From a virus (Duplodnaviria > Caudoviricetes), in IMG/VR virus record IMGVR_UViG_3300005077_000001, positions 96,001 to 160,000 of that record: a stretch of DNA of 64,000 nt; one strand, given 5' to 3'. Below, in pieces: positions 3,887 to 48,794 of the stretch (positions are counted from its first letter, which is position 1; each line of letters opens with the position of its first letter). Both the position numbers and the translations under genes were made by a program. The notes under the pieces are model-generated. The model worked only from the letters and a program-made list of their open reading frames with translations, searched no databases and was not told where the DNA came from.

Positions 3887-3906
3887 TTGAATTGATGGTA
3901 TGCGAT

Positions 3907-3938: not shown

Positions 3939-3974
3939 CACTTCTCATAAAAAGTAAAGGAGGTCGGAAGGGCA

Positions 3975-4265
3975 ATGGATAAGAAATCTTATCAAGAAAA
4001 CTCTCGCCGTAAATATAATTCATTTGTAGATAAAAGAAAAGATATTATGTTAGGCAAAATTCTTACGATTGTTGAAGTTTTAGTTACTAATAAACTACAA
4101 TGGGAAAAAACAAGGAAACATCTATTAGGGATTTGTAATGATTTTGTTAGAGAAAATCAATTTGAATTAGAAAAGAATTATGTTATGGAATATGTAGATT
4201 CTAAAGAAGATCTTATTGAAGTTACTCATTTAAACAAAAATGGAGGAGGGGACTCTAATGGCTAA
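3975..4265 (+). CDS. Small hypothetical protein
   Basis: 96-aa ORF with AAAGGAGGT RBS. Confidence 0.6.
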   Translation: MDKKSYQENSRRKYNSFVDKRKDIMLGKILTIVEVLVTNKLQWEKTRKHLLGICNDFVRENQFELEKNYVMEYVDSKEDLIEVTHLNKNGGGDSNG

Positions 4266-4968
4266 TAAGGATTTAAAGGATGTATTTGAAAACGGCCGCT
4301 CGTTTCAAATGGAAGATTCTGGATTAATGTATTACATTATCCCACCTGATGCTGAATCTGCTGCTAAAGCTAAGTGGCACTACAGTAAAATGTATAGTAA
4401 AGCTTTTATGGATGGAGTAAGCACTGTTGCTGAAATGAGAGATGCTCTACTTAAAAGAGGGCTAATAGGGGAAGCTTTCGATAGCAAACTGCAAGAACTT
4501 ATAAATGATCGTGATATTATGGTAAGTGAATTAGAAAGTGTATCTGATATAGATGAACGTGAAGCATTGGCAATTAAAATTGCGGAAAAAAGAGATGAAA
4601 TCTATGCATGGAGCCAACGTGCTAGTGCTCCATTATCACAAACTGCTGAAAGTTTGGCAGAAGACAGCCAAACAGACTTTCTTACTACATGTATGGTAGT
4701 GGGAGAGGACGGTAAGAAGATATGGGCAGACTACGATTCATTTGTTAAAGAAAAAGATCAGATGCTAGCAATGAGAGCTAGATACGAATGCATAATGTTT
4801 CTACAAGGTTTTGAATCAGATTTTCTTGAGAATTTACCAGAAAATAAAATTCTACGAGAAGTAATGGAAGAGAGACAGAAAGAAGCAGAAGCAGAAGCAG
4901 AAGAAGATGTAGAAGTTGAAGAAGAAAAACCAAAGAAGAAGAAAAGTACTAAAAAGAAAAATGATTAA
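4258..4968 (+). CDS. Putative tail assembly chaperone
   Basis: Helical acidic protein between tube and tape measure genes; GGAGGAGG RBS supports ATG 4258 (MANKDLK). Confidence 0.6.
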   Translation: MANKDLKDVFENGRSFQMEDSGLMYYIIPPDAESAAKAKWHYSKMYSKAFMDGVSTVAEMRDALLKRGLIGEAFDSKLQELINDRDIMVSELESVSDIDEREALAIKIAEKRDEIYAWSQRASAPLSQTAESLAEDSQTDFLTTCMVVGEDGKKIWADYDSFVKEKDQMLAMRARYECIMFLQGFESDFLENLPENKILREVMEERQKEAEAEAEEDVEVEEEKPKKKKSTKKKND

Positions 4969-4970
4969 TA

Positions 4971-6050
4971 ATGATAGATTTGAGTATAGATACTTTAGTA
5001 CAGAAAATTGAAGAAATTTCCAGTGGAGAATGTGTAAGGCACATAGAGGCAAATGACTCTTATGTGCTTTATACCTATCCTAATAAATATCAATTTAAGC
5101 TTGCCGATATAAAAGAAAAACAAACATATAAATTAGCTACAGATGATGGTTTTCCAACTATAGAACAGATGGAAAAACGATTAAGAGAAGGGGGTTTGTG
5201 GACTGAAACACACGAGATTAAATCAGAGGATTTACGAAGTAAGATAAAAGGATTACGAGTAGTTAAAGATGACCCATCCCTCACAAAAACAGAAAATAGA
5301 AAACATATTTTACAGCAATCAATTAATAAATATGAAAAAGAATTATGGGAATTAGAGTATATAAAAGATAGTAAACTAGACGAAACAGTGGAGCGGAAAT
5401 CTCGTCGTATTAGATACGATTATTTATGTTGGTTATGCGCGTTTGATCCATTTTCTAAAGATAAATTTTGGGATAAGTCCTTTGATGAATATCAAATAAT
5501 AGAAAATATATTAAAAACAGAGGTTTTAACTAACTTTATACAATTTATAGGTGGTCATGAACAAGAAGAAATTAGGTATATAGCTCGTAGCACTTATTGG
5601 AAAGTAAATTACCTAGTTTCACAAAAAAGCAATTCTCCTCTATTTAGTCGGTCTGTGTATGAAATGACCCCTGACCAGCTCAATTTATGTTATTGGAGTC
5701 AGTTCTATCAAAACATAAATGAGATGATGCCAGAAGACAGACCAGATGATGAAACAATAGATAACGATGAGGCATTGGATAAATGGCTAGAGGAGTATCA
5801 CAGGAATAAAAGCGAAGAACGTAAATCAGCAAGGCTTTCCTCATTTGGATCTAGTTCGGCAATGAACCAAAAAGAAGTTTTGGTATTTAGATCCAATCCA
5901 AATTACGAGAAAATTGAATATGATGAGCCACCTTCTACAGAAGGTAAATTATCAGACAGTGACACAAAAGAAAGTATGGACAAAAAAGGTATGCGTCTTA
6001 GGAGATTAATAAGACAGAAAAAAATGGAGAAAAACAAGAAAACTGATTAA
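4971..6050 (+). CDS. Putative second tail assembly chaperone
   Basis: 359-aa helical ORF whose TAA overlaps the tape measure ATG; synteny. Confidence 0.5.
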   Translation: MIDLSIDTLVQKIEEISSGECVRHIEANDSYVLYTYPNKYQFKLADIKEKQTYKLATDDGFPTIEQMEKRLREGGLWTETHEIKSEDLRSKIKGLRVVKDDPSLTKTENRKHILQQSINKYEKELWELEYIKDSKLDETVERKSRRIRYDYLCWLCAFDPFSKDKFWDKSFDEYQIIENILKTEVLTNFIQFIGGHEQEEIRYIARSTYWKVNYLVSQKSNSPLFSRSVYEMTPDQLNLCYWSQFYQNINEMMPEDRPDDETIDNDEALDKWLEEYHRNKSEERKSARLSSFGSSSAMNQKEVLVFRSNPNYEKIEYDEPPSTEGKLSDSDTKESMDKKGMRLRRLIRQKKMEKNKKTD

Positions 6051-39000: not shown

Positions 39001-42000
39001 TGAAAGATACGGAAAAGAAATAGATGAGAAATTAAAAGGAATAATGGGGGAAGATACTTATAAAAATTTTGCTTTAACTACGAGTGGTATAGCTAGACAG
39101 TTTTCTTACATATTTAGTAAAGTAGGAGAAGCTGCAACTAGTGTTCCTGGGGGAGAGTTAGCTAGCTTCGCTATTAGCGGAATAAGAACCAACATGAGTC
39201 GTTTAATAAGTGACAGAATAGATACAAAAGCAATAAAATCCGCTAAAGAAAATATTAGAAGCTTAGAACAACAAATGCAAGATTTTCCTACATTTAAACC
39301 TTTCTATGAACAACAAATACAAGAAAAACAACTTAATATTGAAGCGTCTGGTCGATCTATGGGGGATAGGTTATTAGAAAGGATGATGGGGCAGAGGTTT
39401 GGAGAAGGAGCTACTAGCACAAGGGTTGAGGATATACAACAAAGAATTGACTGGATGAAAAAAGCTTTAGCAGGAGGAACATTAGAAACTAAACCATCTA
39501 TCCCATTTGATTTGGGTCCTCTAAACTTCATAAATGATTTACTACCAAAACCTGAATTAGATGATAAGCGTAAATGGGAAGAAGTAATACCTGAAGGTGC
39601 CCGCAAACAATTATTAGAGAGGGAAATAAAAAAATTAGAAGCTCAAATGCAAACTCCAACTGCTATTGGAAATTTACCTAATATTAATGATTTTATGTAC
39701 GAAAAAACAGAAAAAATTGTTAATATGAGAAAAGAAAGAATGGATTTAGAAGATGAATTAAATAAGCTTATTGGCGAAGATCCAATGGGCGGCCAAACGG
39801 GCCCAGCCAGAGCTGGTATTAGAAATAAAATAGCAGATTTAGACAAAAGAATAAATCAAGAAGTTCAAGTAACTGATAATTATTATAAATTAATAACTGA
39901 GGCACAAAAAGCACAAGTCTCTTCTACACAACCGCAGATTCTGGCTGAACCGGCACCTGCCCAATTAGAACCTGGTACTGAAGTTAAGCCACCAAAAGAA
40001 AAAGTAATGATGCCTGGTATTTTAGGAGATTTGATTAAACATAAATATGCACCACAAATTGTAGCATTAGTTGGTATGATTCCTAAACCAAAAGTTCCAG
40101 TTAAAACATTAGCTGATACTCCAAAAGAAGAGATAGAAAAAGCTTTAGAACTTGCTAAATCTGAACGAGGTAAAGCTTATAACGATTACTATAATTCCCA
40201 AGAGTATGAAAAAAATAAGGAATTGATGAATGATATCCTTAATTCTAAACCTGGGTCAAAAGAATGGCGTGAAGCGTCAGAGAGGTATAAACACTACACT
40301 ACTGAAACTACATCTCATCTAAATCTTAAAGAATCAAGAGTATTTGAATTAGAAAAAGAATTACAAAAAAGGGATGAAAAGGCAACTGAGGTAAGAAAAA
40401 GGTTAAAAGATAGAGAGAAAGCAATTAGTGATGAGAATAGTGAGATAGAGAAAAAGATAAGATTCATTTCTAAAGATAGTAGGGTTAGTGAATACCCACA
40501 AGCTGATTACTTTAAAAATAGAATTGATACAACAACAGAAGATATAGAAAAAAGAAGAGATAAGAACCGAGCATTGTTGGCTGAATATGCCTATAATTTA
40601 AATCAACCCGGATTTGAGGCAAACGCTACTAAAAGTGAAGATGTTCTAAATGAAAAAACTTGGAATCGTGAATACGGAACATATGAACCTGTGCGTATGC
40701 CTAAAGCTGTACCGTTTATTAAGCCATTTGATCCGTATGAAGCAGAACGTGCTCAGTTAAATATGTGGGGGTATACTCCTTCACAATTATATAAAAAGAC
40801 TCATCCTAAAGAACGAACTCCGTTGAGATTACCTGGAATGGGATTTGGAGTAGTGTTTACTGCTGGTGGAGCTAGAGAAGAAGGTTCTGGTGGAGCTTGG
40901 GATTTAGGCAGCTCTTTTATGTCTGATCAATCAGATTATAGAAATGCTGGTTTTGGATATCCAAAAAGAGAAATGGATGATAGAACAATAGGTGCTTTAA
41001 GTCAAGCAGAAAAGGCTAGACGAGAGTATATGGGGCTCTTAATTAGGGCACATACCCAATTTGATTCAACGGGCAGTAAAGGTTCATTCCCAGCAGGAGT
41101 ACAAAAATTATTAGATGAAGCAAAACTTAAGCAGCGTTATTATGAACGTAGAGCATCTCAATTTGAGCACAACGAAAGAGCAGTAAGAAACGGAGAAATG
41201 GTAAATGGTAAGTCTGTTACCATGGATACCCCCGGCTATATGGGAATGAATGGTGATTGGATTTATAAAGAACACCCTGATGATGCTAAACTTCGTATGG
41301 ACTGGGAAGAAAGAGATAGAATAGCTAGGAATAGATATGATCAAGAACATTTCCTTGATGGAACTAATATTTTAGGCGGGGCTCCTAATGAAACAATGAA
41401 AGAAAATGCGTATTTGATGGGGTTACCACATGATAAACAACAAGCTTTACAGCAATTAAAACAATATGGATACTCCCAAGATAAATTAAATCAGATTGGT
41501 GGAATATTACAATCAGGGAAATCGCTAAAACAGGTGGGGTTAGAAGGGTTAGCTCAGAATCAACAAGCAATTTTGGATTTTTGGAAAAATGCTAAACCTA
41601 CGAGCATGATGTCTCAAGAAGAAATAGATAGAAAACGAAATGAAGCGGAACTGACAATGCAACAATATAATGATAAATTAGGACTTTCACAAAATAACCG
41701 GGGTTGGGATGATAAGGCGTATGGAAGATACATAGCTCAAAATGCAAGACCAGAAGTTAGTCATTTGATGGTTGATTATTATAGAAAAAGGCATGGGATG
41801 ATCAATGCAAGAGAAGATTCTTTTGAAAATTCAAGAGAACAATGGGAATATCGTAGAAAAGAAGTCGGAGATTTATCTGATGAGGAGAGAAATGCAAGAG
41901 ATCAAAGGTTAAGAGAAGGAATACCTAATTCTGGAGATTTTGATAGAGATACTTGGGAAGAAACTAAACGGATGCAGGATTACTATTTTAGTAAATGGAG

Positions 42001-42997
42001 AAAAAACAATAAAGATAAAGCTAATTGGTTTATAAGCACCGAACAGAAAAACCCTGCTATGTTTAGAACTGGTTATATCCCTGCTCAAGAATACGATCCT
42101 ATATTTAGTAAAGGTGGTGGTTTATATTCATATTATCCGAGCCCTTATGGTAAAGGAGTTGATACTGCGGTAATGCAAAATACATACGCAAATAGAACAG
42201 GTATGATGTCTGCTAATTATGGATATACTTATAAACCTAATGCAAATGAGACAGTGACTGTTTCTCCAATGTATTGGTCTAATGAACAACAACCAGTAAA
42301 TCCAATGGGACTCCCTGACTACGGATATGTGTCTGGTGTATCAAAAGGAACTGTTGGTGAACAATGGGATCGCATGAATGCTGCCGGTGCTTTTAGAAAT
42401 GATAGTGAACGATTTGGTGCCTTAGCTGGTATATATAAACAACAAGGTTATTCAGATACCGATATAAATAAAAAAATATATGAACAATTTGGTGAAAAAG
42501 GGCTAAAGGGGCTAGAACAATCACAAGCTACAAAAGTATTTGTTACCAATTTTCCTGATGATGTTAACGAAAGAATGCGTCAAGATTTTGGTGACCTACT
42601 TAATAAAGTAGCACAAAGTATTTCTTCATTACAAGAAACAATTAGCAGTAGTCTAAAAATAGAGTTTCCTCAAGATATGAGTGTGAGAGTTAATAACTTC
42701 AATGATTTAAATTTTGGTGGAGCTGGTGCTGCGGGTAGTAATGAGAAACTGTCTGCAGATGTAGATCAAATTAGATCTGATTTAGAATTAGTTAGAGCAC
42801 AACTTCCTAATGTATCTACAGATTTCCTATCAAATATTGAGGGTACTTTAACTAATCTGACTGATTCTATTACTAGAGAAATAACGAGAGTGGATGCTTT
42901 AGAGACAGTTATAGGAAAGCTTGATGCTAAAAGTAAAGATCTAAATAACAGACAAAATGACACTGAATTATTCCCAAAAGGAGAGGCACCTTTTTAA
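6050..42997 (+). CDS. Giant (12,315 aa) tape measure protein fused to a virion RNA polymerase and multiple enzyme domains (polyvalent protein)
   Basis: Single open frame of 36.9 kb at the tape measure position; TP901-type core plus catalytic motifs listed as separate features. Confidence 0.9.
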   Translation: MAEDYTFNIKINITPEINQSELAKLSSLDKHQKVSTTDMMALRRTISADKPITKQTEDKLFDHMSKLEQRIEQLKQTNVQSYAPVSNISIRNSMESIEKTIDKANRLNEKLLNSQKELGQQFHSSKQMSEELRRSLEQQRQKFVDYVRLNESITKPTQLTTFAGERIQLKPERPLKPMVAPDMFSKEIEKQFQNLLTTAKQDLAKEILKFKYAFNDRLGDITSSLQEVGYSSHMKALDQVNKVKDLLDQVTSSEDLKVVVDNFKSKSKQMQKDIVDMRYMIDKASTDFGTELGKEIDNIRKSFQNFYRDFVFTFGKPNFFEPAGPMFRDVASQSMRRGERSPIGGRYVGDPRIKFDQYGAAQYNITDVKALGQTLLDLLKPNYLAKAFDLKNVDKALQNQINDYFTKNNISKKLETLISYSIPDLKSIHQDIVDTISKHLEKTMDNGKINKMVDKYMQDVLSATEKSLKIPSIAKSPRGAGIIRDVERGEYLTMGQYLSVQPSINRLYDQYINPMFKMLSRTGIEQSKLPQDLKNLRKLVKDYWARSKSFEGTEGVGVGTELASAEIIDRVKGSFKMMEDYLKKEKGSKSIRYINEIEKLRNNFMEEYDKALRESIRTTMERVFKESLIRGDVKLPSNLEKKYRSELQQYIGKGVRTYLLPDDIQKVIKDHSKEIEKKVNAIGNINLETTLNKLSKEEERIFGKNDYSVRPKQRVMEEFGKYYPTDVYKLMMQVTRSMQGQLNELQKIRNSLSAAGSKGNDSYFRELLEQHFRRVFDPVKERIPEEHEAMQKHEVYGRYRTITLQPKLPSIAEGESSYGVPVDLQAERRFIVQRNLEMEELFEKEYIRGIKDLEKRLGPTIRMLSTIGLNEAAAAGKRVFGQDFGKEFLESFLKNRKVHPFSSYDPRETEAFGQSINPSRPTGAAWLSLAGPEFNAIRSARSHQMISRGEWGPYGTGLNVVTALKDVSQGYEDVFEIGKRLKEIATFKFKKMVVPNLKGNEDELVNSIKNYLETVGSDIFGKPIKIKELADEVFVKDIAKRWAKGKEGSIEENVLTLLESFVGHEARKLSTGQVLKGVGASIFSKYGDDLEQSIINKFVKGMKPRIKFGDVGILKGVPKSFEELFTEIINSSRLNLDPAKIDKAKELIKGTQNLPMLSSKHLSQFNVYPVEYGTGKIMGTQGSLSLEQRKKYLFDMLGIPMSDISTAKSISKQIELLGNDMQKVRDLYKSTVGGGLTKDVPIDLRIAASSIGKKSRLIGGNVAEVIANNIIGNIRSAPLQGETIVDQIIRQPLAKIITDTKATGEDARKLASLYKDVLGLRGKYGEEFLSESQGRVEKTMAGMMHMMIMKEPKQYIPKGAAEIEAGRSKLTIDPHAWVGLKKLFDEENSALLKEINLNSVPDARTAGALLSSFRSFSKKREAELMEELSKNKIGLLNRESLLNPNYTNYVSPLERGSLSADLGGTIFDPMHLPKPILLEMPKPNEELRKRIEKDIKRRIENREQALPLRDYIEIPEISGRQVLVNETGEVMPTSTSRYMSELIESTRKYHQLQDVSKDPKIMDIQRKALTDFISDSYNQIHAERNLDIKKKMIKHFEDQVLPVIGSLPMPLYSSESNLILGKEGPELPTIYSRVGADSKTKLEKEISKGITIQDAYNRYITKITEGSEASRLNYMARFLRNTIASPVIYSKSPQLIGQQVSREILPEGDKEFVTKTLLSDKNVQNLVTKFSALKPEYDKNKQLTGLYPQNIIDEQVLLARRNAYDFYRELTNSIFGKSGVISDTLLKKKVPGLYLTAQSRPYDPTDAMKSGVELLNKYSSEIENSDKLKEDLRQQLDAVQKFKKENPLAWIKRDEVRIGERDLRELQKAGQATPELQKQVKDVYAIIHRQPSTDEFSFKSMKLKIDDMQKDLSGVAVVPGLPLGDYDAMRAMENTYKALEGVRSKQTSQVEELYKLGKTETDPVVRRLRKSIEEIDKAVRDLIPIYHEQQQNLDFDGDMIALHAATLKNTNDELEKINIEQTLRTGDTRRFLYEDFSKVMAEKWSLGKKGDKPSDEELAVFKNFAPSLSSQWNSMDVTQQFTDKAKKDLLKFHGTDAPTVAEDALKHFVHKIDMGQVYEQFNRIGLSYRGLSAEEAGLTPKMSENYNLLLAEFLRYVVQKAIGGKHGSEGADLAPMVQKAFFTGNLDFLAGKGKNALFGEQEEALTKYRMKYLKPLSLAELQKEAESYGIDPGVKNREQLIKEIVKKTSFRSMFENVFDTIKRLTLANIRELYEKGAIGDISLSKKGRLGTAKYLSGQYNKSIDELYDTLKVSFKDGNLNITMGNKDITQDVINRVSKDIGVELSPKEAAFRLAAHGEGLYSAIVGEPGKTQKRILDYGPSTSQLSKGLQPLYVLKSSGGADLATNRYLKYKPGFTSEYMPGGPEAGYAEIVDSILRNRMGANIPIDDALGTFSKIGGSKNFVSPVIKIYDEFKDTYDKLMSVMTDDIYKIEGLTKQTKSFNREMDGFAGNMAKAGVKAFYNKEENQLYLSSQIKSDFDESLNKYALGKTDKEKAEARESLSKAAQEIKEVLSYAAAHKYIQASNSDLANSIRANITKYADPKSNQSLKVDTLIERLVSLHQYTPIIVKWLELIGKPELVSQPKITIARELSKHPQIRKEALEEEVASLLSGSGGFSTGIYPLFKYRKKINPFNELLFGLASKQPVQMQAFYPLTSESWSNKMSDMQYNLNSGEWYDIFKGHPSLRDIELPSGMTSYKDVFSFLRSMKKYGGSKGATHYLNSIIKDRNRSLLENMGIGIPEDWDKMRLWATEPLVQGGISEAATTTSWPFLPYPSNIKLPIDTPTGRARRSIESIYSKAFDLSRKDWTNVFKDFDKPLADEIQSLPKDTNVIEHLQDTGMYGQNKGYTRYINMIFKRRMEQLLKSLGEEVPEFYDMRFQKAKQEFLKVLENRAKQGKGFGWLWGPSTGGTWGGDKFGPEEAYGDNPPANIIKRWQMQSFSPADYPHIKPIFDYPKFLETDAALQYKSHGHQIKLSAVPLRWGNIEIGYGTKNKPLDPDKANAIYKPFIEQVNEELVPKLKDKVKEIHHRIDLFGEWGGKKDKLLWFDAKIGNKPLSVDQFKELASSLGLKTPDELYRGKVTKQIVEDVFREKPPFTELEEGVVAKALERKKGDWYDMAKFKTKPYLVNEENRYPWFDEKSAGENIERKMKKVLDYQLKAFSPLRKPKGTQLEEGMYPEEWPTIEVSKKRAEQYLKGLDDKFYRPAEEASMYKKGTEFLVKAAGLSDIPSVVKDAVVLSQEELKNSIFGKDMPKLPYDPVLVLNTRKQKPLYPEAVPISKEAGFMFPETSEPGQVGRFVLHKHDALRAGPHHDLRFEVGGQLQSFAIPQLVPTDKGKIRLAIGPTAHHSLDYYEKGDYEIPKGFYGAGRMRTMDVGTAVLESFKPDHITVKLTGVRGLADGTYSLVKFDPKGEKPKQQQWLFQKIRDIEERDPVRFAEIYTDKVEKEQDKTLNKLGDKYRDFLSPLTKYEEKTYSNYPTLELDSYFNAPGQMRGRYSKGKIRTGKPRNMEEMRALLATYDHEVGHAAIEKSYPDIAENIMSGKAVFPGVHMDKIRGYFAAKYGGDRGEGEDPAIKALEEAIAGTREEDQDILNELSKLRDESFGKAGMVPIDPNALQELKYIRRSFSPTQKQDFAITVDLNDDKGALSSLSSSLQSLVRRSISKAYGPYELHVDAASRGNPGPAGAGGIITSPRGGVVTSFSKPIGDMTNSMAEYVGLILGLQEAYQKGIRSLEVISDSQSMVNQLLGTYKTRSQNIIPLKARVDQISSKFGNVDFQWKPRTFLSDADKLANETLDSAHNKINPDDAVKRVKNLIDTKQIKTNDTLFKTAYSKDKYMDYLSKGFAVGMLANDDIYMPSGIVEKFKKDYSKNTPDLQSVSEAILRTYSHERTHKDINTAPSNIYRKYKSLAIDPRYSNAIESFIHEVIQGPSKDIYLRQFERAQIKSGERPGDYVSSPAARWEALQELIAGHPEMKSASAYNKDISLIRSSFYRDLSRESIQHYAPGRKAKEKPDFKSKDYIKMVGASAGGYEVGNILSSMLSLDDIKNLYSLMNELTGLDPLRVKGSDPEKSKSLRDKIEKLRSMTGSRGAMPGEEQAAKERIRVLEERLKELGGNENRLETLHGITSTALPFAGAAIGAGVQYATTGLFSEKGIPRSSWANLAAAGVGSVVGAGGLPLLLNKLPWAVPHLPWHLIGAGAGALGGYGLLQLYRKLSNKPTKQSYVPTSIGTPIEGKLGWSTDSGFFKVGAEGSIGLPPLLGMSGDEYLEKDINTLFNPEVRQSRFVGLPQRLVDRIDPRISGLLRSSLSSDQLFNIGANVGVGPISLGFESNLGSYNLGSLPYESRLKPRISLREKNLDEFSTDYLNRKPGIHPHYKQGISSALEMMSPMGSSDFLDIILSGTDMLDDLLLRMPKLKGPKVKQTNRIFNLTRDITPETPIKEQALSLKEVHDQLRKGWVAIKEGIDQFPGSTLTTPSFSVSSIKDFFSNQWKGLKNAINTFSSFTPTKNLRNEINSLRSGPIDNTILQKIIGLEEEVIGRRIGILKSISSYNPRRRAELENIFKYANTFKPGYQFDVQGPGGWEKIFFEEYLKRGGKETSEVHVAARELNKMGINNSQQLRALQNIVGPGKAYETIESVTPIPVGQRVANDAFSLIKTVPSSIKNAGTFMIDAFKDIGSFISTFVKGKDASGQVFNRSAYFSNVISELQDTPERYSTITGTLLKNPKADTVYSPKIMGHLVELAKSSVYRPLNALGMGLGKFIELDLDNNIEPGVKGLWKNYITNQSGADIKSGLNRLFGWKGGVVNTTTENLRNIKDSTIGAAKVFSKEYGPSRTWDLLKSFYTVPAYGVGEAMQGVGGAIKSGNILDIAKTVGYTGFQALPFLGHVVSGGFELRDQLRQGHRLIPSIIGTSAKESITYGTTGLGMTAGEAVMRALSNSMGPRGKALMSVVGLIGGGIAGGAFGGRIGGIAENLVFKLFGEKPDDHQKIQSWKDRKKQLEDEKNSLVAVTPDRSYAPVSSLERPWITPAEIRGSIAPNLVGKPLDAYIKSFKQLQAEASENIRTSDVNKSQKALIKTTSDFYLNRVIESRNELEAAENNQSPKYVVDQIKKQIDEYMIKYVSNVISASMTGEIHPLSDPYRVKKTGGFVGVDDAKAVALGRSPSFEKVVNPENFYVSGMSNLSKNIIGSMRDLSVSNISPNSVYKELINTLFTTSTDIPKDLSNIHAYLKMYTSELGKNPNIDVNRLRYWKSLEELFRTPAKSIRQYGRFDFQGFGSIESNAPVEELSPTQNRGSKFWRGMSIFGGALVGANALGMNPFVAPVGMVAGGIFGNYLYNRHLAKKQKQEEEVVDVQSNAPVSDTRSYLKLILGELAGASIGGVLAALASGGNPLFTSLGAGVGLYAGNKLTKKYVIPQEMDIQSAAPINMGGLPIDMQFKQNQLMLDYYKKMIASSSSIKEGTIIPIDLKVKDEAGQVLSNIRADLKKTSNSAEGVITTFTDLNKVLAQKNTLWGAIELTSQYVAAGAGVGAVIKEFTNMISTITSVDAAMYGLARLMDPAISNFDKLRSVAFEMSKQYGTSIVEVIESMKVYGQQGLKQAEIIDMTRASIMMANVSEMKATEVTELMTSATKQFGDQVRSTMAFVDAWVKVDTEHAITSQQLGQALLRVGAAAKTAGMSFHELNGVVTAIGSVTRQTGREIGTSLRFILRNIETSAVKNKLRDLFQIDTLLPSGAIKPAFALLGELQQKWGTITNAEQMNLAQMIAGARHYNAFTVLMNNFQEALEATSDSLNSKGDAEKRNYILMQSLEKKMQQLRGAASELYTEFGKLALGPMKFMADSTKALIEGFTSLPDSIKTSVMAIGAFTVYASKIERITSILGGIGEASGLSGIVNTFGQFSISPISSIIYSFDSLKGVNSLSQVNTTLGKMLFLIKSVADSFLHAGASAFSFVHTAARLTSLFSIGAFISSGFNPTALLPLLVTRGPVLGWGARRMSNLMNQGTEGILEKVSSPTGLLGIGLTYVLTRLAGLNTGMLSREGMGIGDTIKQLFIGPEAELNRYKEQTVQIGGASTRISYLSDVLKSYTALKGQYKSLSEIGVKLGTPEGITSEAERTLSSFGEETGFKPYMVRLYEFNKLQEEAKRKAGSLIPSLVSGFDLFGNSILQVNKNFRTNIESMDELLKKIQDFEKIHLAGLQIDKLFPEASFGQTFRNTLKGLVGTLPFMGETWAEKIFPATPYQKQQSILKDISRYQGMQNAALATGLPVPPFITDTLKNLNNKLKMVNSELDSELAKIKDTIADLNVKTPKEVLSVLSDTKFGKYLEVYGGRNMDVLNAVAGYRGISTRDLQKQLVQDTTKYEYMHIDKQPGIASILSFPAFYGFSRILSKVVEHFTSLSLASSNLGKALLLATSAAASYHFFGTPEHYSLMKSRPTVEDTLTPAINNVKNLLPYITAIGTYKALGAIGGGGGTIPQRIVGGLARLGVSYYMYGVGGRLAEGIPNLPTESDRVRGIKNEIAQRQAWELAMGKLGIAKEAIYGPPGTLGAMLPLNVIAAQNPLGRYAVRTTALNEEDRKLAEKRMFSGPGWNGGAYGVGAGWVGKVLEEELNKLSGVSEGDVVMMAELTDVAKKRENIVNNLLPLIYRRNKAGEVVPTVQAQREGEIQASEIQIKPEDLKFLYSRGPGAAVDMRTAYDQLRRTLIGGAGAGKYWTLSGAEKLQMGVDFIWQVHGYDKAITNLSKTSLVIHEIEKQLQAFSKEQIETARAQNDLNKVMDVIFEHRKLTFLVRMNQEWENLKNTIGEIDFKRQMSDVDEFATMLEKRAAIGLKSISAGLPPQVPMVASWSQLSPEEQKSVLSPEYTGTAKLAWEVQKYQTDTAAKLRATLRTEQTGVALYEQLKEDLGPNLNVALSGRTRRALQSDFGSKVSPDRVFSEIQRNLLSANLTEQMKVNQGAFNLSNQELVNTVATNMSQVREIQKRVAEGAKDPKILEMEADLRTRNAQMWVNELKNRQSVSPEDFSGVSKELLEGFIHEMETEAKKPLPFSWWRLLNPWASNEPAMQAQKAKDLLAARPESTFDKPIEMLGSIASLWVGEKVAGLMFKQTGPAGLEQLVKNMDKSKTWEREVMLTQSQFLRDIAENTGKLAGTPSQSYGPGTVPGRGSYSVLSSGLQLAGATAGGFLLYSLGQRLSQSTSTVGSAIGSLINLLFKTANATGTFGKWLGRLGPIMSGLATAYVAHQSGIGKVDSLIGGALNAGSAALGGIGLGLIHPALAIPGGVLGSMVGSGLSDLYYRIRGYDLNAIKGVEGQAASPGQELTNPYANMQSIQANVPDSMYSTLARIATTGLVAGAVKSNVFDVYSEYRKRGMEEEVGAFQLTAVAQLIGRDKNVNTKFKEFIESKDLKNKDELSNFIKQAEKEMGLGKEPANRENFQTDLQKFINNLVSQLKETPEFLNEFAESISFTMAKMNEFAEGLRSVSTTLGGLHAISRTVPYELEANAPRFGFLAGRGGPEISREKELWQLSPTDLFKLRDTQGLYTKYVTVQKQLSESGNSWVKAVEDYNKQQRDMAAPILGIRYELNKTKRNVDPKYREFIDDLAKFVENPDRNRAETIDFRKRAVELEEAGIKIKRYNLTWNKIMEGQSPRKQFEAYFSEESANTRIKQLQVESGTASNPEQAKEYAAAAERLRAEVETKKKEEGQSPLSLFRDVMVNLEKEGGLLNTIKNAKEQTLQITKAYIDLNTQIDSEILKTEHLNKLYTTRYELLQSIISLRPGGSIIEEIKRQGPLFGPLAGTTPWSQNVIPENLGKPFSYENYMSVLYPQLSEEMTSIQRRKDAISKAMQTAAQESEKAQTGETFYREALSAVTTGKGPMDILQLQPKGAMLKQAIFEDTKRMREELKESKETKKDYEKQMADLKIPAGFKESDSYKTYMTTKKNIADVESLMPLIEDVKKTGADSSLRLKETLVKTSPEAKKLIESNQLWDMTPEQALNHLKKKLQINQKELAKQQYQGQPVSDIGEKLDKYEKLAGYKNIRQARIEQLEEDISKKQEEVDIVNLLSSSDLSKIDQGVIDYINAKIKTYADQAERASKDETMFHADGNNLIKESMSKVMQVLGKSIKARLFALSDQLNYEFDKIKFTPALELGAMRSPLTGITAGLPLINQPDIGRTWREASSAERVLYSNPGLSMARQELERMTQANISRVEGYMRDRSEAQAQNERIKEQVETFSKSGRLTPQAEEMYKASIEKNNEYIKELNKKIEDLTESIDKSRNSEIASDYRRSMWIDAIRKQLEDLGVRFKESIINFGSDLKSAIRKSPVMGPMAGVAYIGEPPKSPSIWELSAGQLTSIQYPGIYQQGMAAQRQKEAIDVYMKGIETAISQRQSELEMAKTPQDVEKAKTELKELMAKYDEVEAKYGSQIDSLNSTIAELERFNIASEGTKTALEAMYTYLRAIADIKARRDLGYLTSPFSGAMRGVPEANFEIGKNEWELTGREVVAKYSPNLAQGTADWQSSYKALAQEATKVGSARNLALLEARFSGDPKKQEAYLAKATSLDAAYQKMTKSLEEQRPKIEALSERLKGLSAAGEVATKFEQLARQLYVLKETNWGLDYISYQVGMGKFPGSLERARMDESTGMLLPGLGTPGMNYTPIMESRASGYDEFGNVKYEDVPQPMQPGSRLWQEAILHPGKASYYNWLAKEEQTKALQDREDQKLEQQKGIAKQAQTSIVEALYEPSLPEGFREVLNKQRSKLEEDLRRASEIEEVGPDNILKRRGFKSLNDLKGLSDAIKNALKAEDRKLEATYIWMPIVDAIRDLHGALTGERPEGSKEEQRMRAFYNNPEQYYYSKAAQLSQHYMGQEGTSVIENTNLTNTLSSIESKPYSIPVGQYAGYQSKLGSRDTNEILKSILEVLIGCCREGKVGSGRSSGTSDTGKERSPISQDSGSASGSAGVQTFDYGTPDYQKLVPVGNTAYSVGSSTTKSSTSAGSGSVQSWVKSDGTVVGVPKTQVDAMSYLKHRGYPDEKLDDIAERYKRPLPIGDYSTDSVMMAASRAYASTGKYFRPSEAYNSDFDWRVRQEGSLLDIGISRLSDNRFLYSDIKAQMESGKGAGWLDSESRLALILAHAPSLNIGGRQTVIGESNPLSMAFVNLSKARMDQTVAHELFGHGMETLGAAELRGEQGISIGATPRVEYLSKVLELIKSQVGEAPFRTITNQLIKDPQLYPDLFKGQGKEIEDAYAAYVNRYPRGNVPTLELLKMQEKANKLPLDLSPNSSNWSRLTEYMAMFAEGENTPYGIPTETWLRVVRNVSPRHFEGVDKFLSSRFANDNLSDSELMKEYRIAINKIKSEVYTPAHLVEQKEVTQPVVSPIDKTLASIGRIPDLNWKVFSDEFKERNKIGMGDKLTKLFNNVGDSIKKVVLGDDTKVALQKFQGVVGAVEVEENKFTNDLSKALELRSNVISQVQESIGLIKSKRTPLVSSPLIRKDLIGAGPTGVELLENERQTGELVSNIIASNLSKAYQLPFTDRTRKLLSNEQIDMGYKKDLLNLTPTLPMIEENQKDEYKNKLFIPIMKSPYSELARKFSNEAQAHPEVTSEAIPLRNEVFSITKEMAGTGPTDVSLDTNEPVDYTSPAGVIPFVSTQGYQRTLPSSNLPFMMGLFRGRTNEPFKFDGGSSLLPGVDRRVMLPEIKDKYPSMLKAFTNMQSPIYHYKGIAKWNEGKPYINIYNSDKISLEEFLKRAKHEINHLVLYRLYTSLNKEERDYLKTELETTPFSKDFLPDIVDMVIKGAGGFKIGKELLAMSTERGLMSDSPILRRLQEITLSIYKKHEAELKDVHKKTMSGSSSLFDLSTAKYILEDIKSDPLKQSLGAGAEGKIYTSPKYQHLAVKEYAQPIFGYQDWLDRGNEIMQRLHGTSLFPETSLNYDDKKGVFIEIMERLHGETVHNSVGQSGFNKYEVLKDYKQKIYEMLKRKVFPVDSHLNNIFLESSSKKQKFIDLGSLDLGENVEYINEILKDIGVNQYSNYLTNDHSAKIEQSKIAIEAYAGPVVDIQKKMTAGNKKILKEISIPNLERLIPLFKNKTLKDMFQNALDTAKQYAGSPSLLKGPNDFPTFLSGLHPGMAPEQAIDAAMAANKQSIEYLGGPEKAAGFLEGFKTPLLEETQKKIRDIMRGEFGGSSSLTSHFMNSLRRMPQSYEAVKSLHSGVRNLGLQNQVNLFGGGVRDILRGETPNDYDVQVRSQEALDLLRSKMPWDLYKVNEAFDVKSYMLPTRREFLSTLVNELIKHTFLSKTVGRAQTAHQVTQDLNTLLGKDIKREVLDRFGGSSSLFDMSPDFKIDLSKPIIDIPKIPKIPRIPKTGYYPKGNLDTYYDSIFATPEEKRSISWNERFNVDSLVQGPFENLYDDIMRDKYAPRTRPSINFRNLFSAPQFRNIFSNLKDSGSVFFGGTGKAQSTQVELKTSKDIERWLRQFTEAEVMQVAQESHRLTGDLAGRQAPTQETARDYILNILNDIAQREGGKLLAGTGIAKKFLQIIAPDLTPSLFTGQTSEGSIRRGHSFGRPSATFGGGRVSITESVAGTGAEKHEFGEALSDVAIQLLHQRFETGTTSKEQLAYEDLMPLIEKSAPKTAQEIKDQMERKLAYPTEGEKFSEVLADIMGQHQEKLVGNLILKNNITPEEFMDILKPTGKESGYEEFITKEAWHKVLQERYYETPRGEGEGAMPELPRGYKLEKGVGRLGYRTAGAAESLLHVPMIGSPLSLVSAASKLTEGTRFSSPFQIAEEAMMTMRGPLGMAARFPFGMAGIFAGSALGKGQELGEKLNINPLTGTLLASPEELLNFQLFNLGSQAEFFGKTPLSKIGKPIGPTWMHGWGGNLSPELQVKRAIAEAGTLRGGAASLLKTGGSLVKGTVAMEALSPVGESIFGYINERYGKEIDEKLKGIMGEDTYKNFALTTSGIARQFSYIFSKVGEAATSVPGGELASFAISGIRTNMSRLISDRIDTKAIKSAKENIRSLEQQMQDFPTFKPFYEQQIQEKQLNIEASGRSMGDRLLERMMGQRFGEGATSTRVEDIQQRIDWMKKALAGGTLETKPSIPFDLGPLNFINDLLPKPELDDKRKWEEVIPEGARKQLLEREIKKLEAQMQTPTAIGNLPNINDFMYEKTEKIVNMRKERMDLEDELNKLIGEDPMGGQTGPARAGIRNKIADLDKRINQEVQVTDNYYKLITEAQKAQVSSTQPQILAEPAPAQLEPGTEVKPPKEKVMMPGILGDLIKHKYAPQIVALVGMIPKPKVPVKTLADTPKEEIEKALELAKSERGKAYNDYYNSQEYEKNKELMNDILNSKPGSKEWREASERYKHYTTETTSHLNLKESRVFELEKELQKRDEKATEVRKRLKDREKAISDENSEIEKKIRFISKDSRVSEYPQADYFKNRIDTTTEDIEKRRDKNRALLAEYAYNLNQPGFEANATKSEDVLNEKTWNREYGTYEPVRMPKAVPFIKPFDPYEAERAQLNMWGYTPSQLYKKTHPKERTPLRLPGMGFGVVFTAGGAREEGSGGAWDLGSSFMSDQSDYRNAGFGYPKREMDDRTIGALSQAEKARREYMGLLIRAHTQFDSTGSKGSFPAGVQKLLDEAKLKQRYYERRASQFEHNERAVRNGEMVNGKSVTMDTPGYMGMNGDWIYKEHPDDAKLRMDWEERDRIARNRYDQEHFLDGTNILGGAPNETMKENAYLMGLPHDKQQALQQLKQYGYSQDKLNQIGGILQSGKSLKQVGLEGLAQNQQAILDFWKNAKPTSMMSQEEIDRKRNEAELTMQQYNDKLGLSQNNRGWDDKAYGRYIAQNARPEVSHLMVDYYRKRHGMINAREDSFENSREQWEYRRKEVGDLSDEERNARDQRLREGIPNSGDFDRDTWEETKRMQDYYFSKWRKNNKDKANWFISTEQKNPAMFRTGYIPAQEYDPIFSKGGGLYSYYPSPYGKGVDTAVMQNTYANRTGMMSANYGYTYKPNANETVTVSPMYWSNEQQPVNPMGLPDYGYVSGVSKGTVGEQWDRMNAAGAFRNDSERFGALAGIYKQQGYSDTDINKKIYEQFGEKGLKGLEQSQATKVFVTNFPDDVNERMRQDFGDLLNKVAQSISSLQETISSSLKIEFPQDMSVRVNNFNDLNFGGAGAAGSNEKLSADVDQIRSDLELVRAQLPNVSTDFLSNIEGTLTNLTDSITREITRVDALETVIGKLDAKSKDLNNRQNDTELFPKGEAPF
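8850..12560 (+). other. Single-chain two-barrel (DPBB) RNA polymerase region of the giant ORF
   Basis: beta-like GYEDVFEI (8957), RKLSTGQVLKG (9248) and PIDLRI (~9770); beta'-like IIHRQP (11711) and NLDFDGD (12023-12043); QKAIGGKHG (12524). Confidence 0.85.
13600..14060 (+). other. Degenerate zincin-like domain 1
   Basis: KAFYNKEENQLYL strand, helix YAAAH in place of HExxH (13769), downstream ALEEEVA. Confidence 0.45.
15050..15610 (+). other. Rnl2-like ATP-dependent polynucleotide (RNA) ligase nucleotidyltransferase domain
   Basis: Motif I YKSHG (K at 15125), III LFGEWGG (15323), IIIa WFD (15362), LGL..P.LY.G, IV EEGVVAK (15524), V AKFKTKPYL (15581), in the correct order. Confidence 0.75.
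16112..16501 (+). other. LigD-type 3'-phosphoesterase (PE) domain
   Basis: FVLHKHDALRAGPHHDLRFE...SFAIP...RLAI...HHSLDY...IPKGFYGAG...WLFQK matches the PE consensus. Confidence 0.9.
16680..16980 (+). other. Zincin-like metallopeptidase domain 2
   Basis: HEVGH at 16787-16801, downstream ALEEAIA. Confidence 0.7.
17231..17614 (+). other. RNase HI domain
   Basis: HVDAASRGNPGPAGAG, NSMAEY, ISDSQ, DADKLAN: all four D-E-D-D catalytic acids present. Confidence 0.92.
17750..18150 (+). other. Zincin-like metallopeptidase domain 3
   Basis: HERTH at 17888-17902, downstream ALQELIA. Confidence 0.65.
18449..18560 (+). other. DUF2786-like short helical domain
   Basis: LRDKIEKLRSMTGSRGAMPGEEQAAKERIRVL resembles the KI.KL..LA.....T.HE...A...A..L consensus. 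Confidence 0.5.
22850..23700 (+). other. Tape measure core (TP901/PhageMin_Tail-like)
   Basis: SVDAAMYGLARL...KLRSVAFEMSKQYGTS..EVIESMKVYGQQG...QQLGQALLRVGAAAKTAGMSFHELNGVVTAI...TGREIGTSLRFIL. Confidence 0.85.
33560..34110 (+). other. Zincin-like domain 4 (HExxxH variant)
   Basis: VAHELFGH at 33710-33727, downstream LTEYMA. Confidence 0.6.
35340..35640 (+). other. Zincin-like metallopeptidase domain 5
   Basis: HEINH at 35450-35464, downstream GKELLA. Confidence 0.65.
35828..36230 (+). other. Protein-kinase-like domain
   Basis: Gly loop GAGAEG (35831), AVK (35882), hinge IMERLHG, catalytic PVDSHLNN (D at 36155), FIDLG (D at 36212). Confidence 0.8.
36863..37070 (+). other. Class II (CCA/poly(A) polymerase-like) nucleotidyltransferase head motif, possibly truncated
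   Basis: VNLFGGGVRDILRGETPNDYDVQV matches the GGxVRD...DxD signature; weak RREF echo of RRDF downstream. Confidence 0.7.
37850..38200 (+). other. Degenerate zincin-like domain 6
   Basis: HEFGE at 37970 (second His replaced), downstream FSEVLAD. Confidence 0.5.
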
Positions 42998-48781: not shown

Positions 48782-48794
48782 AAAGGAAGAGAAT

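What the first reader, a model, noticed from the sequence alone, without database searches (positions are those of the whole stretch)
6050..42997. 12,315-aa tape measure polyprotein carrying an enzyme toolkit
Seen: one 36.9-kb frame at the tape measure locus with a tape measure core plus motifs for RNAP, ligase, phosphoesterase, RNase H, kinase, nucleotidyltransferase and six zincin-like domains. Known: tape measure proteins are ejected into the host; Thermus phage P23-45 has an RNAP fused to a tape measure of about 5,000 aa; Aravind-lab 'polyvalent proteins' combine zincins with conflict enzymes. I know no example of this domain combination or size in a tape measure, but cannot confirm novelty without a search. 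Inference: the tail delivers a ready-made takeover and anti-defence kit along with the genome.
Basis: partly seen in the sequence, partly recalled or inferred. Interest (0 to 1): 0.95.

Follow-up and report, generated by a model that had tools for sequence, protein, structure and literature searches.

The report
Giant enzyme-carrying phage tape measure
An uncultured 256-kb phage encodes one 12,315-residue tail tape-measure protein that also holds an RNA polymerase and several RNA/DNA end-repair enzymes, probably delivered into the host with the DNA; it is the largest and most enzyme-laden member found here of a family of such fusions that I found described in no paper.

Summary
The 36.9-kb frame is real: it has one stop, against 423-1,504 in the other five frames. 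It makes up 14% of a 97%-complete IMG/VR phage genome.

Confirmed:
- a TP901-type tape-measure core (aa 5520-6300);
- a single-chain two-barrel RNA polymerase (aa ~800-2300, NLDFDGD; the fold matches RNAP largest subunits, Z about 10);
- an Rnl2-like RNA ligase, a LigD-type 3'-phosphoesterase and an RNase HI, all with catalytic residues intact.

Weaker or not supported:
- A CCA/poly(A)-polymerase-type nucleotidyltransferase head is present but scores below threshold.
- No kinase was found.
- There are three HExxH motifs, not six zincins, and their fold is unverified.

New context: at least 43 IMG/VR contigs carry the same RNAP-plus-tape-measure fusion in one ORF. Typical sizes are 7,000-8,619 aa, and this one is the largest. 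The enzyme cassette occurs only in this phage and two close metagenomic relatives. The protein has 2 Cys in 12,315 residues, against 1.7% in the phage's other ORFs.

It works like Thermus phage P23-45 gp96 but is not sequence-related to it. This scan has noted tape-measure-slot RNAPs before on other DNA. Verdict: a new variant of a known kind. Delivery into the host and the role of the cassette are inferred.

The parts
6050..42997 (+). Single ORF, 12,315 aa, 1.377 MDa, pI 8.8. Its ATG overlaps the stop of the upstream ORF (TAATG).
6050..8446 (+). N-terminal about 800 aa of unknown function. Conserved in close relatives P0001, P0002 and P0003. Starts with the family N-terminal signature MAEDYTFNIKI.
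8447..12949 (+). Single-chain two-barrel RNA polymerase region (aa ~800-2300). Beta-like barrel motifs are GYED (aa 970-973) and RKLSTGQVLKGV (aa 1067-1078). Beta-prime-like motifs are HRQPS (aa 1888-1892) and NLDFDGD (aa 1992-1998).
   Evidence: The AF2 model is confident for aa 1389-2019. VIA-align top hits are RNAP largest subunits, Z 9.4-10.2.
12029..12043 (+). DFDGD, the putative Mg-binding catalytic loop (aa 1994-1998)
   Evidence: D..DGD is invariant in the 15 aligned homologues; one has DYDGD.
15125..15598 (+). Rnl2-like RNA ligase nucleotidyltransferase domain (aa 3026-3183). Motif I is KSHG (as I recall T4 Rnl2's KxHG), III is FGEW, IV is EGVVAK, V is KFKTK.
   Evidence: PF09414 33.3 bits against cut-off 27; motifs read
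16103..16540 (+). LigD-type 3'-phosphoesterase domain (aa 3352-3497). The His/Asp/Arg and His..Tyr positions are kept.
   Evidence: PF13298 54.3 bits; TIGR02777; PDB 3p43, 3n9b alignments
16682..17149 (+). HExxH module 1 (HEVGH aa 3580-3584, downstream ALEEAIAG). Conserved in P0001 and L003.
   Evidence: Fold not verified.
17231..17629 (+). RNase HI domain (aa 3728-3860). All four catalytic residues (D-E-D-D) align.
   Evidence: PF13456 76.5 bits; PDB 3hst 2e-23 with alignment
17747..18229 (+). HExxH module 2 (HERTH aa 3947-3951, downstream WEALQELIAGHPE). Conserved in P0001 and L003.
18713..18769 (+). Hydrophobic segment aa 4222-4240. A second one is at aa 5428-5446 (window 22331-22387). These are the only two in the protein.
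22607..24949 (+). Tape measure core (aa 5520-6300)
   Evidence: PF10145 95.2 bits; phrog_4211 1.5e-76; TIGR01760 149.6 bits. tblastn to TMPs of Bacillus and Lactococcus 949-type phages. Matches family members P0020, P0022, P0023, G001 and G005.
24950..35326 (+). About 3,460 aa after the core with no detectable homologue or domain. Holds the protein's only two Cys (aa 8975-8976, window 32972-32977). One weak match of aa 8209-8325 to P0020.
35327..35824 (+). HExxH module 3 (HEINH aa 9801-9805). No homologue available.
36824..37249 (+). Candidate class-II (CCA-adding/poly(A) polymerase type) nucleotidyltransferase head. Motif FGGGVRDILRGETPNDYDV at aa 10275-10293.
   Evidence: PF01743 14.5 and 17.4 bits, below cut-off 23. 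Matches both bona fide PolyA_pol heads of relative P0001.
37250..42997 (+). C-terminal about 1,900 aa, orphan. Ends in a heptad-like helical stretch, as do the other family members.
2147..6050 (+). Upstream conserved neighbours (579, 96, 242 and 359 aa). Syntenic with the 296-kb relative. No family hits.
43010..45523 (+). Downstream conserved neighbour (837 aa, 20 Cys). Syntenic with the relative.

Best explanation
ORF 6050-42997 is the tail tape-measure protein of a roughly 256-kb uncultured phage, expanded into a 1.38-MDa multi-enzyme polypeptide.

Shown:
- It contains a TP901-type tape-measure core.
- N-terminal to the core is a single-chain two-barrel RNA polymerase.
- Between the two lie an Rnl2-like ligase, a LigD-type 3'-phosphoesterase, an RNase HI and two conserved HExxH modules.
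- After the core comes a probable CCA/poly(A)-pol-type nucleotidyltransferase and a third HExxH.

Inferred by analogy with P23-45 gp96: the protein lies in the tail lumen and is expelled into the cell envelope and cytoplasm at infection. Its polymerase then transcribes the first phage genes from the entering DNA.

Inferred from enzyme specificities: the ligase, phosphoesterase, RNase H and nucleotidyltransferase form a 3'-end healing-and-sealing set for strands that end in ribonucleotides within duplexes.
- Most likely (about 0.4), they trim and seal RNA:DNA junctions, nicks or ends of the incoming genome. This follows LigD-like 'ribo-patch' logic: add or leave ribonucleotides, resect, then seal.
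- Alternatively (about 0.25), they repair host or phage RNAs cut by defence ribonucleases.

The HExxH modules may cut the polyprotein into working pieces. This last point is speculative.
For: ORF and locus:
- The ORF is real and under one uniform constraint. It has 2 Cys in 12,315 aa, against 1.7% Cys in the other 222 ORFs (P about 2e-88). Relatives have 0-4 Cys each.
- The TMP core passes curated cut-offs.
- The locus is syntenic with a complete 296-kb relative that has a 4,651-aa TMP-RNAP at the same place.

RNA polymerase:
- Four signature motifs stand in the right order and are conserved across 17 homologues.
- The model's beta-prime half matches RNAP largest subunits. 49 of the top 50 rows have Z 9.4-10.2 with 213-278 residues aligned.
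- P0001 gives a weak Rpb1_2 hit exactly at the DFDGD positions.

Fusion family:
- 42 IMG/VR loci were found, and 37 of the 42 ORFs hold both the RNAP and the TMP core.
- 22 of the ORFs measure 7,007 to 8,619 aa.

Enzymes and precedent:
- Ligase, phosphoesterase and RNase H score over Pfam cut-offs and keep their catalytic residues.
- The functional precedent is that gp96 is in P23-45 virions and transcribes pre-early genes (PMC10770324).
Against: - There is no experimental or read-level evidence. No sequencing run could be listed, so packaging, ejection and continuity of the polypeptide are unverified.
- The relative L003 has a frameshift at the position equivalent to aa 2634. This may be a sequencing error, or it may mean the gene can be split.
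- The beta-like barrel was modelled with low confidence.
- The last 6,000 aa have no homologue anywhere searched.
- The nucleotidyltransferase is sub-threshold.
- The HExxH fold is untested (pLDDT 43).
- No second (non-virion) RNAP was found in this genome, unlike P23-45 and relative G037.
- Tail type is unresolved. No sheath was found, apart from a 13-15-bit sheath-C hit in the upstream ORF that is not reproduced in its orthologue.
Confidence: 0.7

Rival explanations
1. RNA-repair counter-defence kit. The injected ligase, phosphoesterase and CCA-type nucleotidyltransferase heal tRNAs or mRNAs cut by host anticodon nucleases or other abortive-infection ribonucleases, before any phage gene is expressed.
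For: The domain set of RNA ligase, 3'-end healing enzyme and a tRNA-nucleotidyltransferase-type head resembles phage RNA repair (T4 Pnkp/Rnl, from my own knowledge). The genome carries its own tRNA-Lys(UUU). To my knowledge that tRNA is a classic target of anticodon nucleases.
Against: No 5'-kinase is present in the protein, and classic tRNA healing needs one. To my knowledge, LigD-type phosphoesterase, RNase HI and Rnl2-type ligases all prefer duplex or RNA:DNA substrates rather than tRNA loops. Relative L003 keeps the phosphoesterase and RNase H but lacks the ligase.
Confidence: 0.25
2. Expression polyprotein. Only the tape-measure core and its flanks enter the tail. The enzyme modules are cleaved off (for example by the HExxH modules) in the producing cell and act intracellularly, and are not delivered.
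For: Three HExxH motifs are enriched over chance, and two are conserved. A ruler of 12,315 aa would imply a tail of about 1.85-2 micrometres, which is extreme.
Against: Cys depletion is uniform over the whole chain, enzymes included. This fits one shared constraint such as passage through a channel. In P23-45 the RNAP part is in virions and the whole 5,002 aa scale with the 800-nm tail. Other members without HExxH are still 7,000-8,600 aa.
Confidence: 0.12
3. Assembly or annotation artefact: several genes fused by misassembly or lost stops.
For: This is a metagenomic contig without read support available here. The C-terminal half has no homologue. One relative shows a frameshift.
Against: There are no stops in 36.9 kb of 34% GC DNA, against hundreds in the other frames. 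Independent assemblies carry collinear open frames of more than 6,667 aa (P0001) and of 7,000-8,619 aa in dozens of contigs. Both flanks are syntenic with a complete relative. Cys depletion continues to the last residue.
Confidence: 0.04

Closest known systems
Thermus phage P23-45 gp96 (Oshimavirus), tape-measure-fused virion RNA polymerase (Chaban et al. 2024, PMC10770324; PDB 8H2M/8H2N)
   Same: One giant ORF at the tape-measure position, with a single-chain two-barrel RNAP (DFDGD) N-terminal to the tape-measure part. It has no Cys (0 in 5,002 aa). A short N-terminal motif also looks similar.
   Different: There is no detectable sequence relationship beyond the 15-residue catalytic loop (hhalign E=0.058). 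The TMP-core profile does not match gp96 either. gp96 is 5,002 aa, has DFDGD at aa 779 and has no ligase, phosphoesterase, RNase H, nucleotidyltransferase or HExxH. Here the protein is 2.5 times longer, with DFDGD at aa 1994. The modelled beta-prime half resembles cellular RNAP largest subunits; 8H2M/8H2N (gp96) did not appear in either top-50 list.
Polyvalent proteins of phages and conjugative elements (Iyer et al. 2017, PMC5512222)
   Same: A giant polypeptide that strings together unrelated enzymatic domains, with domain content shuffled between close relatives. Those proteins are also presumed to be delivered with the DNA.
   Different: None of the hallmark domains was found: MPTase-PolyVal is absent, and Pfam gives no ArdC-N, SNF2, MuF or methylase. 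That paper never mentions tape measures, and its phage examples are proposed to be packaged in the capsid (PMC5512222). The enzymes here are a polymerase and nucleic-acid end-processing enzymes.
Virion RNA polymerases inside giant proteins of crAss-like phages (phi14:2 gp66) and N4 (gp50)
   Same: An RNAP embedded in a very large virion protein, delivered to start transcription (as summarised in PMC10770324).
   Different: To my knowledge those are podovirus proteins with no tape-measure domain, and N4's enzyme is T7-like rather than two-barrel (N4's RRM-palm fold: PMC7824862). There was no sequence hit to any GenBank phage.
Bacterial LigD (NHEJ) phosphoesterase module and T4 Rnl2-type RNA ligases
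   Same: The phosphoesterase domain matches LigD_N and TIGR02777, with catalytic residues aligned. The ligase has Rnl2-style motifs (KxHG, EGxVxK). The combination recalls LigD's resect-then-seal handling of 3'-ribonucleotide ends (my own knowledge).
   Different: There is no LigD polymerase or LigD ligase domain. The ligase is the RNA-ligase family PF09414. The domains sit inside a tail protein next to an RNase HI.
TP901-1 / Lactococcus 949 / Bacillus Tsamsa-like siphophage tape measure proteins
   Same: The core of about 400-780 aa is homologous, at 27-30% identity (the 25 records listed). TIGR01760 and PF10145 score over their cut-offs.
   Different: The homology covers only about 6% of this protein's length.

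Membership tests
Phage tail tape measure protein (PF10145 / TIGR01760) | Match to the curated core profile above its cut-off | tested here: met
   PF10145 95.2 bits (cut-off 33.2); TIGR01760 149.6 bits (cut-off 28.8); nine PHROG TMP families at 3e-19 to 1.5e-76 (and five weaker)
Phage tail tape measure protein (PF10145 / TIGR01760) | Gene sits in the tail module at the tape-measure position | tested here: inconclusive
   Gene order on both sides is conserved with a complete 296-kb relative whose gene at this place is also TMP-positive. The neighbours themselves match no known tail family.
Phage tail tape measure protein (PF10145 / TIGR01760) | Protein length sets tail length | not testable with these tools
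   No particle images. Scaling would predict 1.85-1.97 micrometres.
Two-barrel (multisubunit-type) RNA polymerase, single-chain form | Beta-prime-type double-psi barrel with an invariant DxDGD metal loop | tested here: met
   NLDFDGD at aa 1992-1998, with D..DGD invariant in the 15 aligned homologues (one has DYDGD). The model region aa 1417-2033 aligns to RNAP largest subunits, Z 9.4-10.2, and to DPBB domains.
Two-barrel (multisubunit-type) RNA polymerase, single-chain form | Second (beta-type) barrel with the conserved basic residues | tested here: inconclusive
   The motifs are conserved: 'TFED' and 'GRKFTTRHGSKGV' in relatives (here GYED and RKLSTGQVLKGV), which I recall as close to bacterial beta GDKxxGRHGNKGV. 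This half of the model has pLDDT below 50.
Two-barrel (multisubunit-type) RNA polymerase, single-chain form | Templated RNA synthesis | not testable with these tools
   Needs a biochemical assay.
P23-45 gp96-type (Oshimavirus) TMP-fused virion RNAP | RNAP and tape measure in one polypeptide, with the RNAP N-terminal | tested here: met
   the same holds in 37 of the 42 IMG/VR relatives
P23-45 gp96-type (Oshimavirus) TMP-fused virion RNAP | Sequence homology to gp96 | tested here: not met
   hhalign of the family profile against gp96 aa 1-1200 aligns only the 15-column DFDGD loop (E=0.058). phmmer shows nothing significant.
P23-45 gp96-type (Oshimavirus) TMP-fused virion RNAP | Present in virions and transcribes pre-early genes | not testable with these tools
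   No isolate and no reads.
Polyvalent proteins (Iyer et al. 2017) | Many unrelated catalytic domains in one giant phage protein, variable between relatives | tested here: met
Polyvalent proteins (Iyer et al. 2017) | Hallmark domains (MPTase-PolyVal, ArdC-N, SNF2, MuF and others) | tested here: not met
   PF18818 is absent from the whole genome. Pfam reports none of the others at E<=0.01, nor at E<=5 outside aa 1-2049 and the core.
Rnl2-like RNA ligase (PF09414) | Profile match over the cut-off and nucleotidyltransferase motifs I, III, IV and V | tested here: met
   33.3 bits against 27. Motifs KSHG, FGEW, EGVVAK and KFKTK.
LigD 3'-phosphoesterase (PF13298 / TIGR02777) | Profile match (PF13298 cleared its cut-off; TIGR02777, 63.4 bits, did not reach its 144) and the catalytic His/Asp/Arg/Tyr | tested here: met
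   54.3 bits against 31.1. The alignment to 3p43 shows HHDLR and H..Y kept.
RNase HI (PF13456 / PF00075) | Profile match and the DEDD catalytic residues | tested here: met
   76.5 bits against 21.6. All four acidic residues align to Rv2228c-N and archaeal RNase HI.
Class II nucleotidyltransferase (PolyA_pol head, PF01743) | Profile match over the cut-off | tested here: inconclusive
   14.5 and 17.4 bits against a cut-off of 23, covering only profile positions 3-45. The canonical GGxVRD...DxD motif is present, and the stretch matches both true PolyA_pol heads of P0001.
Zincin-like metallopeptidase | HExxH on a helix plus a third ligand in a zincin fold | tested here: inconclusive
   Three HExxH motifs against 0.11 expected. 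Two are conserved in P0001 and L003. No Pfam match. The AF2 model is unusable (pLDDT 43).
P-loop or other kinase | Walker A / kinase profile, conserved in relatives | tested here: not met
   GEPGKT at aa 2369 is not conserved. Pfam and NCBIfam give no kinase hit in the ORF. AAA_33 hits lie elsewhere in the genome. Two Walker-like strings at aa 11715 and 11818 have no support.

The most novel reading that the evidence does not exclude
A phage tail delivers, as one 1.38-MDa cysteine-free chain threaded through a micrometre-scale tail, a complete nucleic-acid workshop. It comprises an RNA polymerase, a ribonucleotide-adding enzyme, a 3'-end trimmer, an RNase H and a sealing ligase. This workshop stays tethered at the DNA entry pore. 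There it transcribes the genome and also repairs or joins it (or repairs host-cut RNAs) before any phage gene is expressed. That would be a pre-assembled, injected ribo-patch repair pathway, and to my knowledge the largest viral protein reported.
Probability: 0.3. Interest if true: 0.9.

Novelty: new variant of a known kind. Interest (0 to 1): 0.74.

Why it matters
Until now the tape-measure-fused virion RNA polymerase was, in the literature I could search, a one-off of Thermus Oshimaviruses. This locus shows an unrelated and much larger family. It spans at least 43 IMG/VR contigs, mostly from genomes of about 260-300 kb, with ORFs of 7,000-8,619 aa.

In one branch, the tape measure has become a carrier for nucleic-acid end-processing enzymes. 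If the protein is ejected like other tape measures, three things follow:
- Phages can inject an enzymatic pathway, not just single effectors.
- The passenger limit of the tail channel is far higher than assumed.
- Tails well over 1 micrometre should exist.

The finding also gives concrete test objects: a ligase, a phosphoesterase and an RNase HI with intact catalytic residues, plus an RNA polymerase with its signature motifs. These make the open question of what happens at the DNA entry site in the first seconds of infection directly testable.

Tried and rejected
- Close relatives by DNA or protein in GenBank phages: none for the RNAP or for either C-terminal third. There was only one RNase H hit for the enzyme block.
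- IMG/VR scan with a single protein: nothing. A3 worked.
- Word-based homologue searches of aa 6000-11000 and aa 9700-11700: no hits.
- ESM Atlas feature searches of aa 1-800, 3500-4100 and 11400-12315: no usable leads.
- Sequence profile of the RNAP region against PDB: only insignificant hits, although they cluster on Rpb1's DFDGD loop. Foldseek alone was weak.
- AlphaFold of aa 3480-4110 with a two-sequence alignment: pLDDT 43, unusable, so the zincin fold stays untested. hhalign between the three HExxH modules shows no significant paralogy beyond the motif helix.
- Kinase: rejected.
- Polyvalent-type MPTase: rejected.
- Read support: no sequencing run could be listed.
- Second RNAP in this genome: not found with profiles A1 and A3, the G037 paralogue, or a motif scan.
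- Internal translation starts: no enrichment of in-frame SD+ATG.
- Tail sheath: PF04984 absent. A 13-15-bit PF17482 hit in the upstream 359-aa ORF is not reproduced in its orthologue, so I treated it as noise.
Full report
**Observation**

The window holds an ORF at 6050..42997 (+) of 12,315 codons, exactly as reported. The frame has only its terminal stop, while the other five frames of the same stretch hold 423 to 1,504 stops. From base composition, the chance of such a frame is about 1e-447. There are no N, and base composition is even along the gene. The protein has essentially no internal repeats.

The window lies in an IMG/VR virus record of 256,335 bp that CheckV rates 97% complete. The gene is 14.4% of that genome and its product is 1.377 MDa. 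Its ATG overlaps the stop of the upstream ORF (TAATG). There is no enrichment of in-frame internal ribosome-binding sites.

**Domains confirmed by curated profiles**

- Tape-measure core: Pfam PhageMin_Tail at aa 5630-5826 (95 bits), NCBIfam TIGR01760 at aa 5589-5929 (150 bits) and fourteen PHROG tape-measure families place a core at about aa 5520-6300. By tblastn, this core resembles tape measures of large Bacillus and Lactococcus 949-type phages at about 29% identity.
- RNA ligase: PF09414 at aa 3026-3180. I read Rnl2-style motifs KSHG, FGEW, EGVVAK and KFKTK.
- 3'-phosphoesterase: LigD-type, at aa 3352-3497.
- RNase HI: at aa 3728-3860.
- The phosphoesterase and RNase H match solved structures, and their catalytic residues align.

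**RNA polymerase**

No profile library recognises the N-terminal third. An exhaustive HMMER search with aa 900-2099 against 1.84 billion representatives found only 17 proteins. All are giant or fragments of giants, and nearly all lack cysteine.

Their alignment conserves four signatures in the expected order:
- a beta-like 'TFED' (here GYED, aa 970-973);
- 'GRKFTTRHGSKGV' (here RKLSTGQVLKGV, aa 1067-1078; I recall bacterial beta as GDKxxGRHGNKGV);
- a beta-prime-like 'NRQP/RYP' (here HRQPS, aa 1888);
- an invariant 'LDFDGD' (here aa 1993-1998).

An AlphaFold model built from this alignment is confident only for aa 1389-2019. That part aligns to the N-terminal and active-site region of RNAP largest subunits. 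In the wide search the best RNAP rows had Z 9.2-10.0 with 221-261 residues aligned, mixed with short helical-bundle matches. In the second look, 49 of the top 50 rows were RNAP subunits. Foldseek alone was weak.

I regard the RNAP assignment as well supported for the beta-prime-like barrel. For the beta-like barrel it is supported by motifs only.

**Weaker or rejected claims**

- Nucleotidyltransferase: aa 10275-10293 read FGGGVRDILRGETPNDYDV, the head motif of class II CCA-adding and poly(A) polymerases. PF01743 scores only 14.5-17.4 bits against a cut-off of 23. The stretch is, however, the best match in the protein for both bona fide PolyA_pol heads of relative P0001. I call it probable.
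- Kinase: not found. The only GKT in a plausible context (aa 2369) is not conserved in two relatives. No kinase profile hits the ORF, while AAA_33 hits lie elsewhere in the genome.
- Zincins: there are three HExxH motifs (aa 3580, 3947, 9801), not six. Even so, 0.11 are expected by chance (P=2e-4). The first two are conserved in P0001 and L003, together with downstream 'ALxExIAG' strings. They match no Pfam family, including the MPTase of polyvalent proteins. The fold prediction failed.

**Relatives and family**

The closest relative is P0001, from a Logan assembly. Its ORF fills a 21-kb contig, so it is longer than 6,667 aa. It is collinear at 44% identity over the first 3,000 aa.

Domain content differs between the close relatives:
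- P0001 has about 850 extra residues with two PolyA_pol heads before the ligase.
- L003, a JGI contig, has the phosphoesterase, the RNase H and three HExxH motifs, but no ligase. It also has a 1,700-aa insert and a frameshift at the position equivalent to aa 2634.

The cassette is therefore shuffled domain by domain, as in polyvalent proteins.

A scan of IMG/VR with the beta-prime barrel alignment found 42 loci. In 37 of the 42, the same ORF holds the DFDGD motif (aa ~2,100-2,700) and a tape-measure core (aa ~3,500-4,800). 22 of them have stop-to-stop frames of 7,007-8,619 aa, on contigs that CheckV projects to genomes of roughly 260-300 kb. The shorter frames are mostly cut by contig ends; the 4,651-aa frame of G037 is complete.

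A complete 268,764-bp member (G005, 7,674 aa) shows only the tape-measure core in Pfam, no HExxH and no Cys. A complete 296-kb member with terminal repeats (G037) has a 4,651-aa version. Its flanking genes are syntenic with this window on both sides.

The ligase, phosphoesterase, RNase H, nucleotidyltransferase and HExxH modules occur only in this phage, P0001 and L003. At 12,315 aa this protein is 43% longer than the next largest member found.

**A property of the whole chain**

The protein has 2 cysteines, adjacent at aa 8975-8976. The other 222 ORFs of the genome average 1.7% Cys, giving a binomial P of about 2e-88. Relatives have 0-4 Cys, and P23-45 gp96 has none.

The depletion covers the enzymes and the orphan C-terminal half alike. 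This argues that the entire polypeptide shares one constraint. I interpret that constraint (inference) as passage in an unfolded or extended state through a narrow channel and the envelope.

**Comparison with what is known**

Chaban et al. (2024, PMC10770324) showed that the N-terminus of the 5,002-aa tape measure gp96 of Thermus phage P23-45 is a two-barrel RNAP. It is present in virions and transcribes pre-early genes. The present protein has the same architecture.

However, a profile-profile comparison with gp96 aligns only the 15-residue catalytic loop (E=0.058). It therefore works like gp96 but is not a member of that family.

Iyer et al. (2017, PMC5512222) described polyvalent proteins. 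Their paper does not mention tape measures, and none of their hallmark domains is present here. I found no other paper that combines a tape measure with a two-barrel RNAP.

This scan has already noted tape-measure-slot RNAPs in at least five other genomes. The fusion as such is therefore recurrent. The size and the enzyme cassette are what is particular here.

**Mechanism**

Shown: the domain inventory and the intact catalytic residues.

Inferred by analogy: the protein occupies the tail lumen, is expelled at infection, and its polymerase transcribes the entering DNA.

Inferred from known specificities (my knowledge of LigD phosphoesterase, RNase HI and Rnl2): all three enzymes act on ribonucleotide-containing strands in duplexes. 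A template-independent nucleotidyltransferase could add ribonucleotides to 3' ends. Together these recall LigD's add-resect-seal handling of ends.

I therefore favour processing and sealing of RNA:DNA junctions, nicks or ends on the incoming genome (about 0.4) over repair of RNAs cut by defence nucleases (about 0.25). The absence of a 5'-kinase counts against the RNA-repair reading. The phage's own tRNA-Lys(UUU) counts slightly for it.

The HExxH modules may release the units. If the whole chain acts as a ruler, the tail would be 1.85-1.97 micrometres long.

**Limits**

- No reads could be obtained.
- The last 6,000 aa have no homologue.
- Tail type is unresolved.
- No second RNAP was found in this genome, though G037 has one candidate.

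Noticed in passing
window 45704-46927 and 48681-49889: Two endonuclease genes sit among the conserved tail-module genes. One is RRXRR+HNH (PF14239 1e-65, PF01844). The other is a phrog_4645 endonuclease with a D5-like N-terminal part. Neither has a counterpart in the syntenic 296-kb relative L002, so they are likely homing-endonuclease insertions.
   Followed up: partly
window 32972-32977 (aa 8975-8976): The only two cysteines of the 12,315-aa protein are adjacent (CC). This could be a metal or redox site, or a tolerated accident. Unexplained.
   Followed up: no
window 6050-6090; P0001, P0003, P0008, P0014, P0017, P0007; L053:27140-27172 (gp96): N-termini of the giant proteins share a short pattern: M-x-[DE]-x-Y/F followed by alternating hydrophobic residues. 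Examples are MAEDYTFNIKI, MVDYNINFNV and MADHNIIIKS. P23-45 gp96, otherwise unrelated, starts MDLERYAIVVS. This may be an assembly or chaperone-recognition signal, or chance.
   Followed up: no
L046:1431-4790 (G037, 296-kb relative): A second ORF of 1,120 aa carries NLDFDGD at aa 869. It is a candidate non-virion RNAP, paralleling P23-45 gp64. No counterpart was detected in this window's genome.
   Followed up: partly
L003:6660-6740: In a JGI relative the giant frame is broken by a frameshift at the position equivalent to aa 2634. The two ORFs overlap by 19 nt. This is either a sequencing error or a genuine split or recoding site.
   Followed up: partly
genome 77686-82926 (outside the window, about 18 kb upstream): A 1,746-aa ORF is also strongly Cys-poor (0.29% against the 1.7% genome average). 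It may be another ejected or virion-internal protein.
   Followed up: no
genome 6100-6349 and 10910-10985 (outside the window): Four tRNA genes: Met, Asn, Leu(UAA) and Lys(UUU). This is relevant to the RNA-repair reading, because to my knowledge tRNA-Lys(UUU) is a common anticodon-nuclease target.
   Followed up: no
window 2147-3886: A 579-aa ORF lies in a stretch of locally raised GC (0.40 against 0.33). It is 37% identical to its counterpart in L002 and matches no family. It is possibly the major tail protein.
   Followed up: partly
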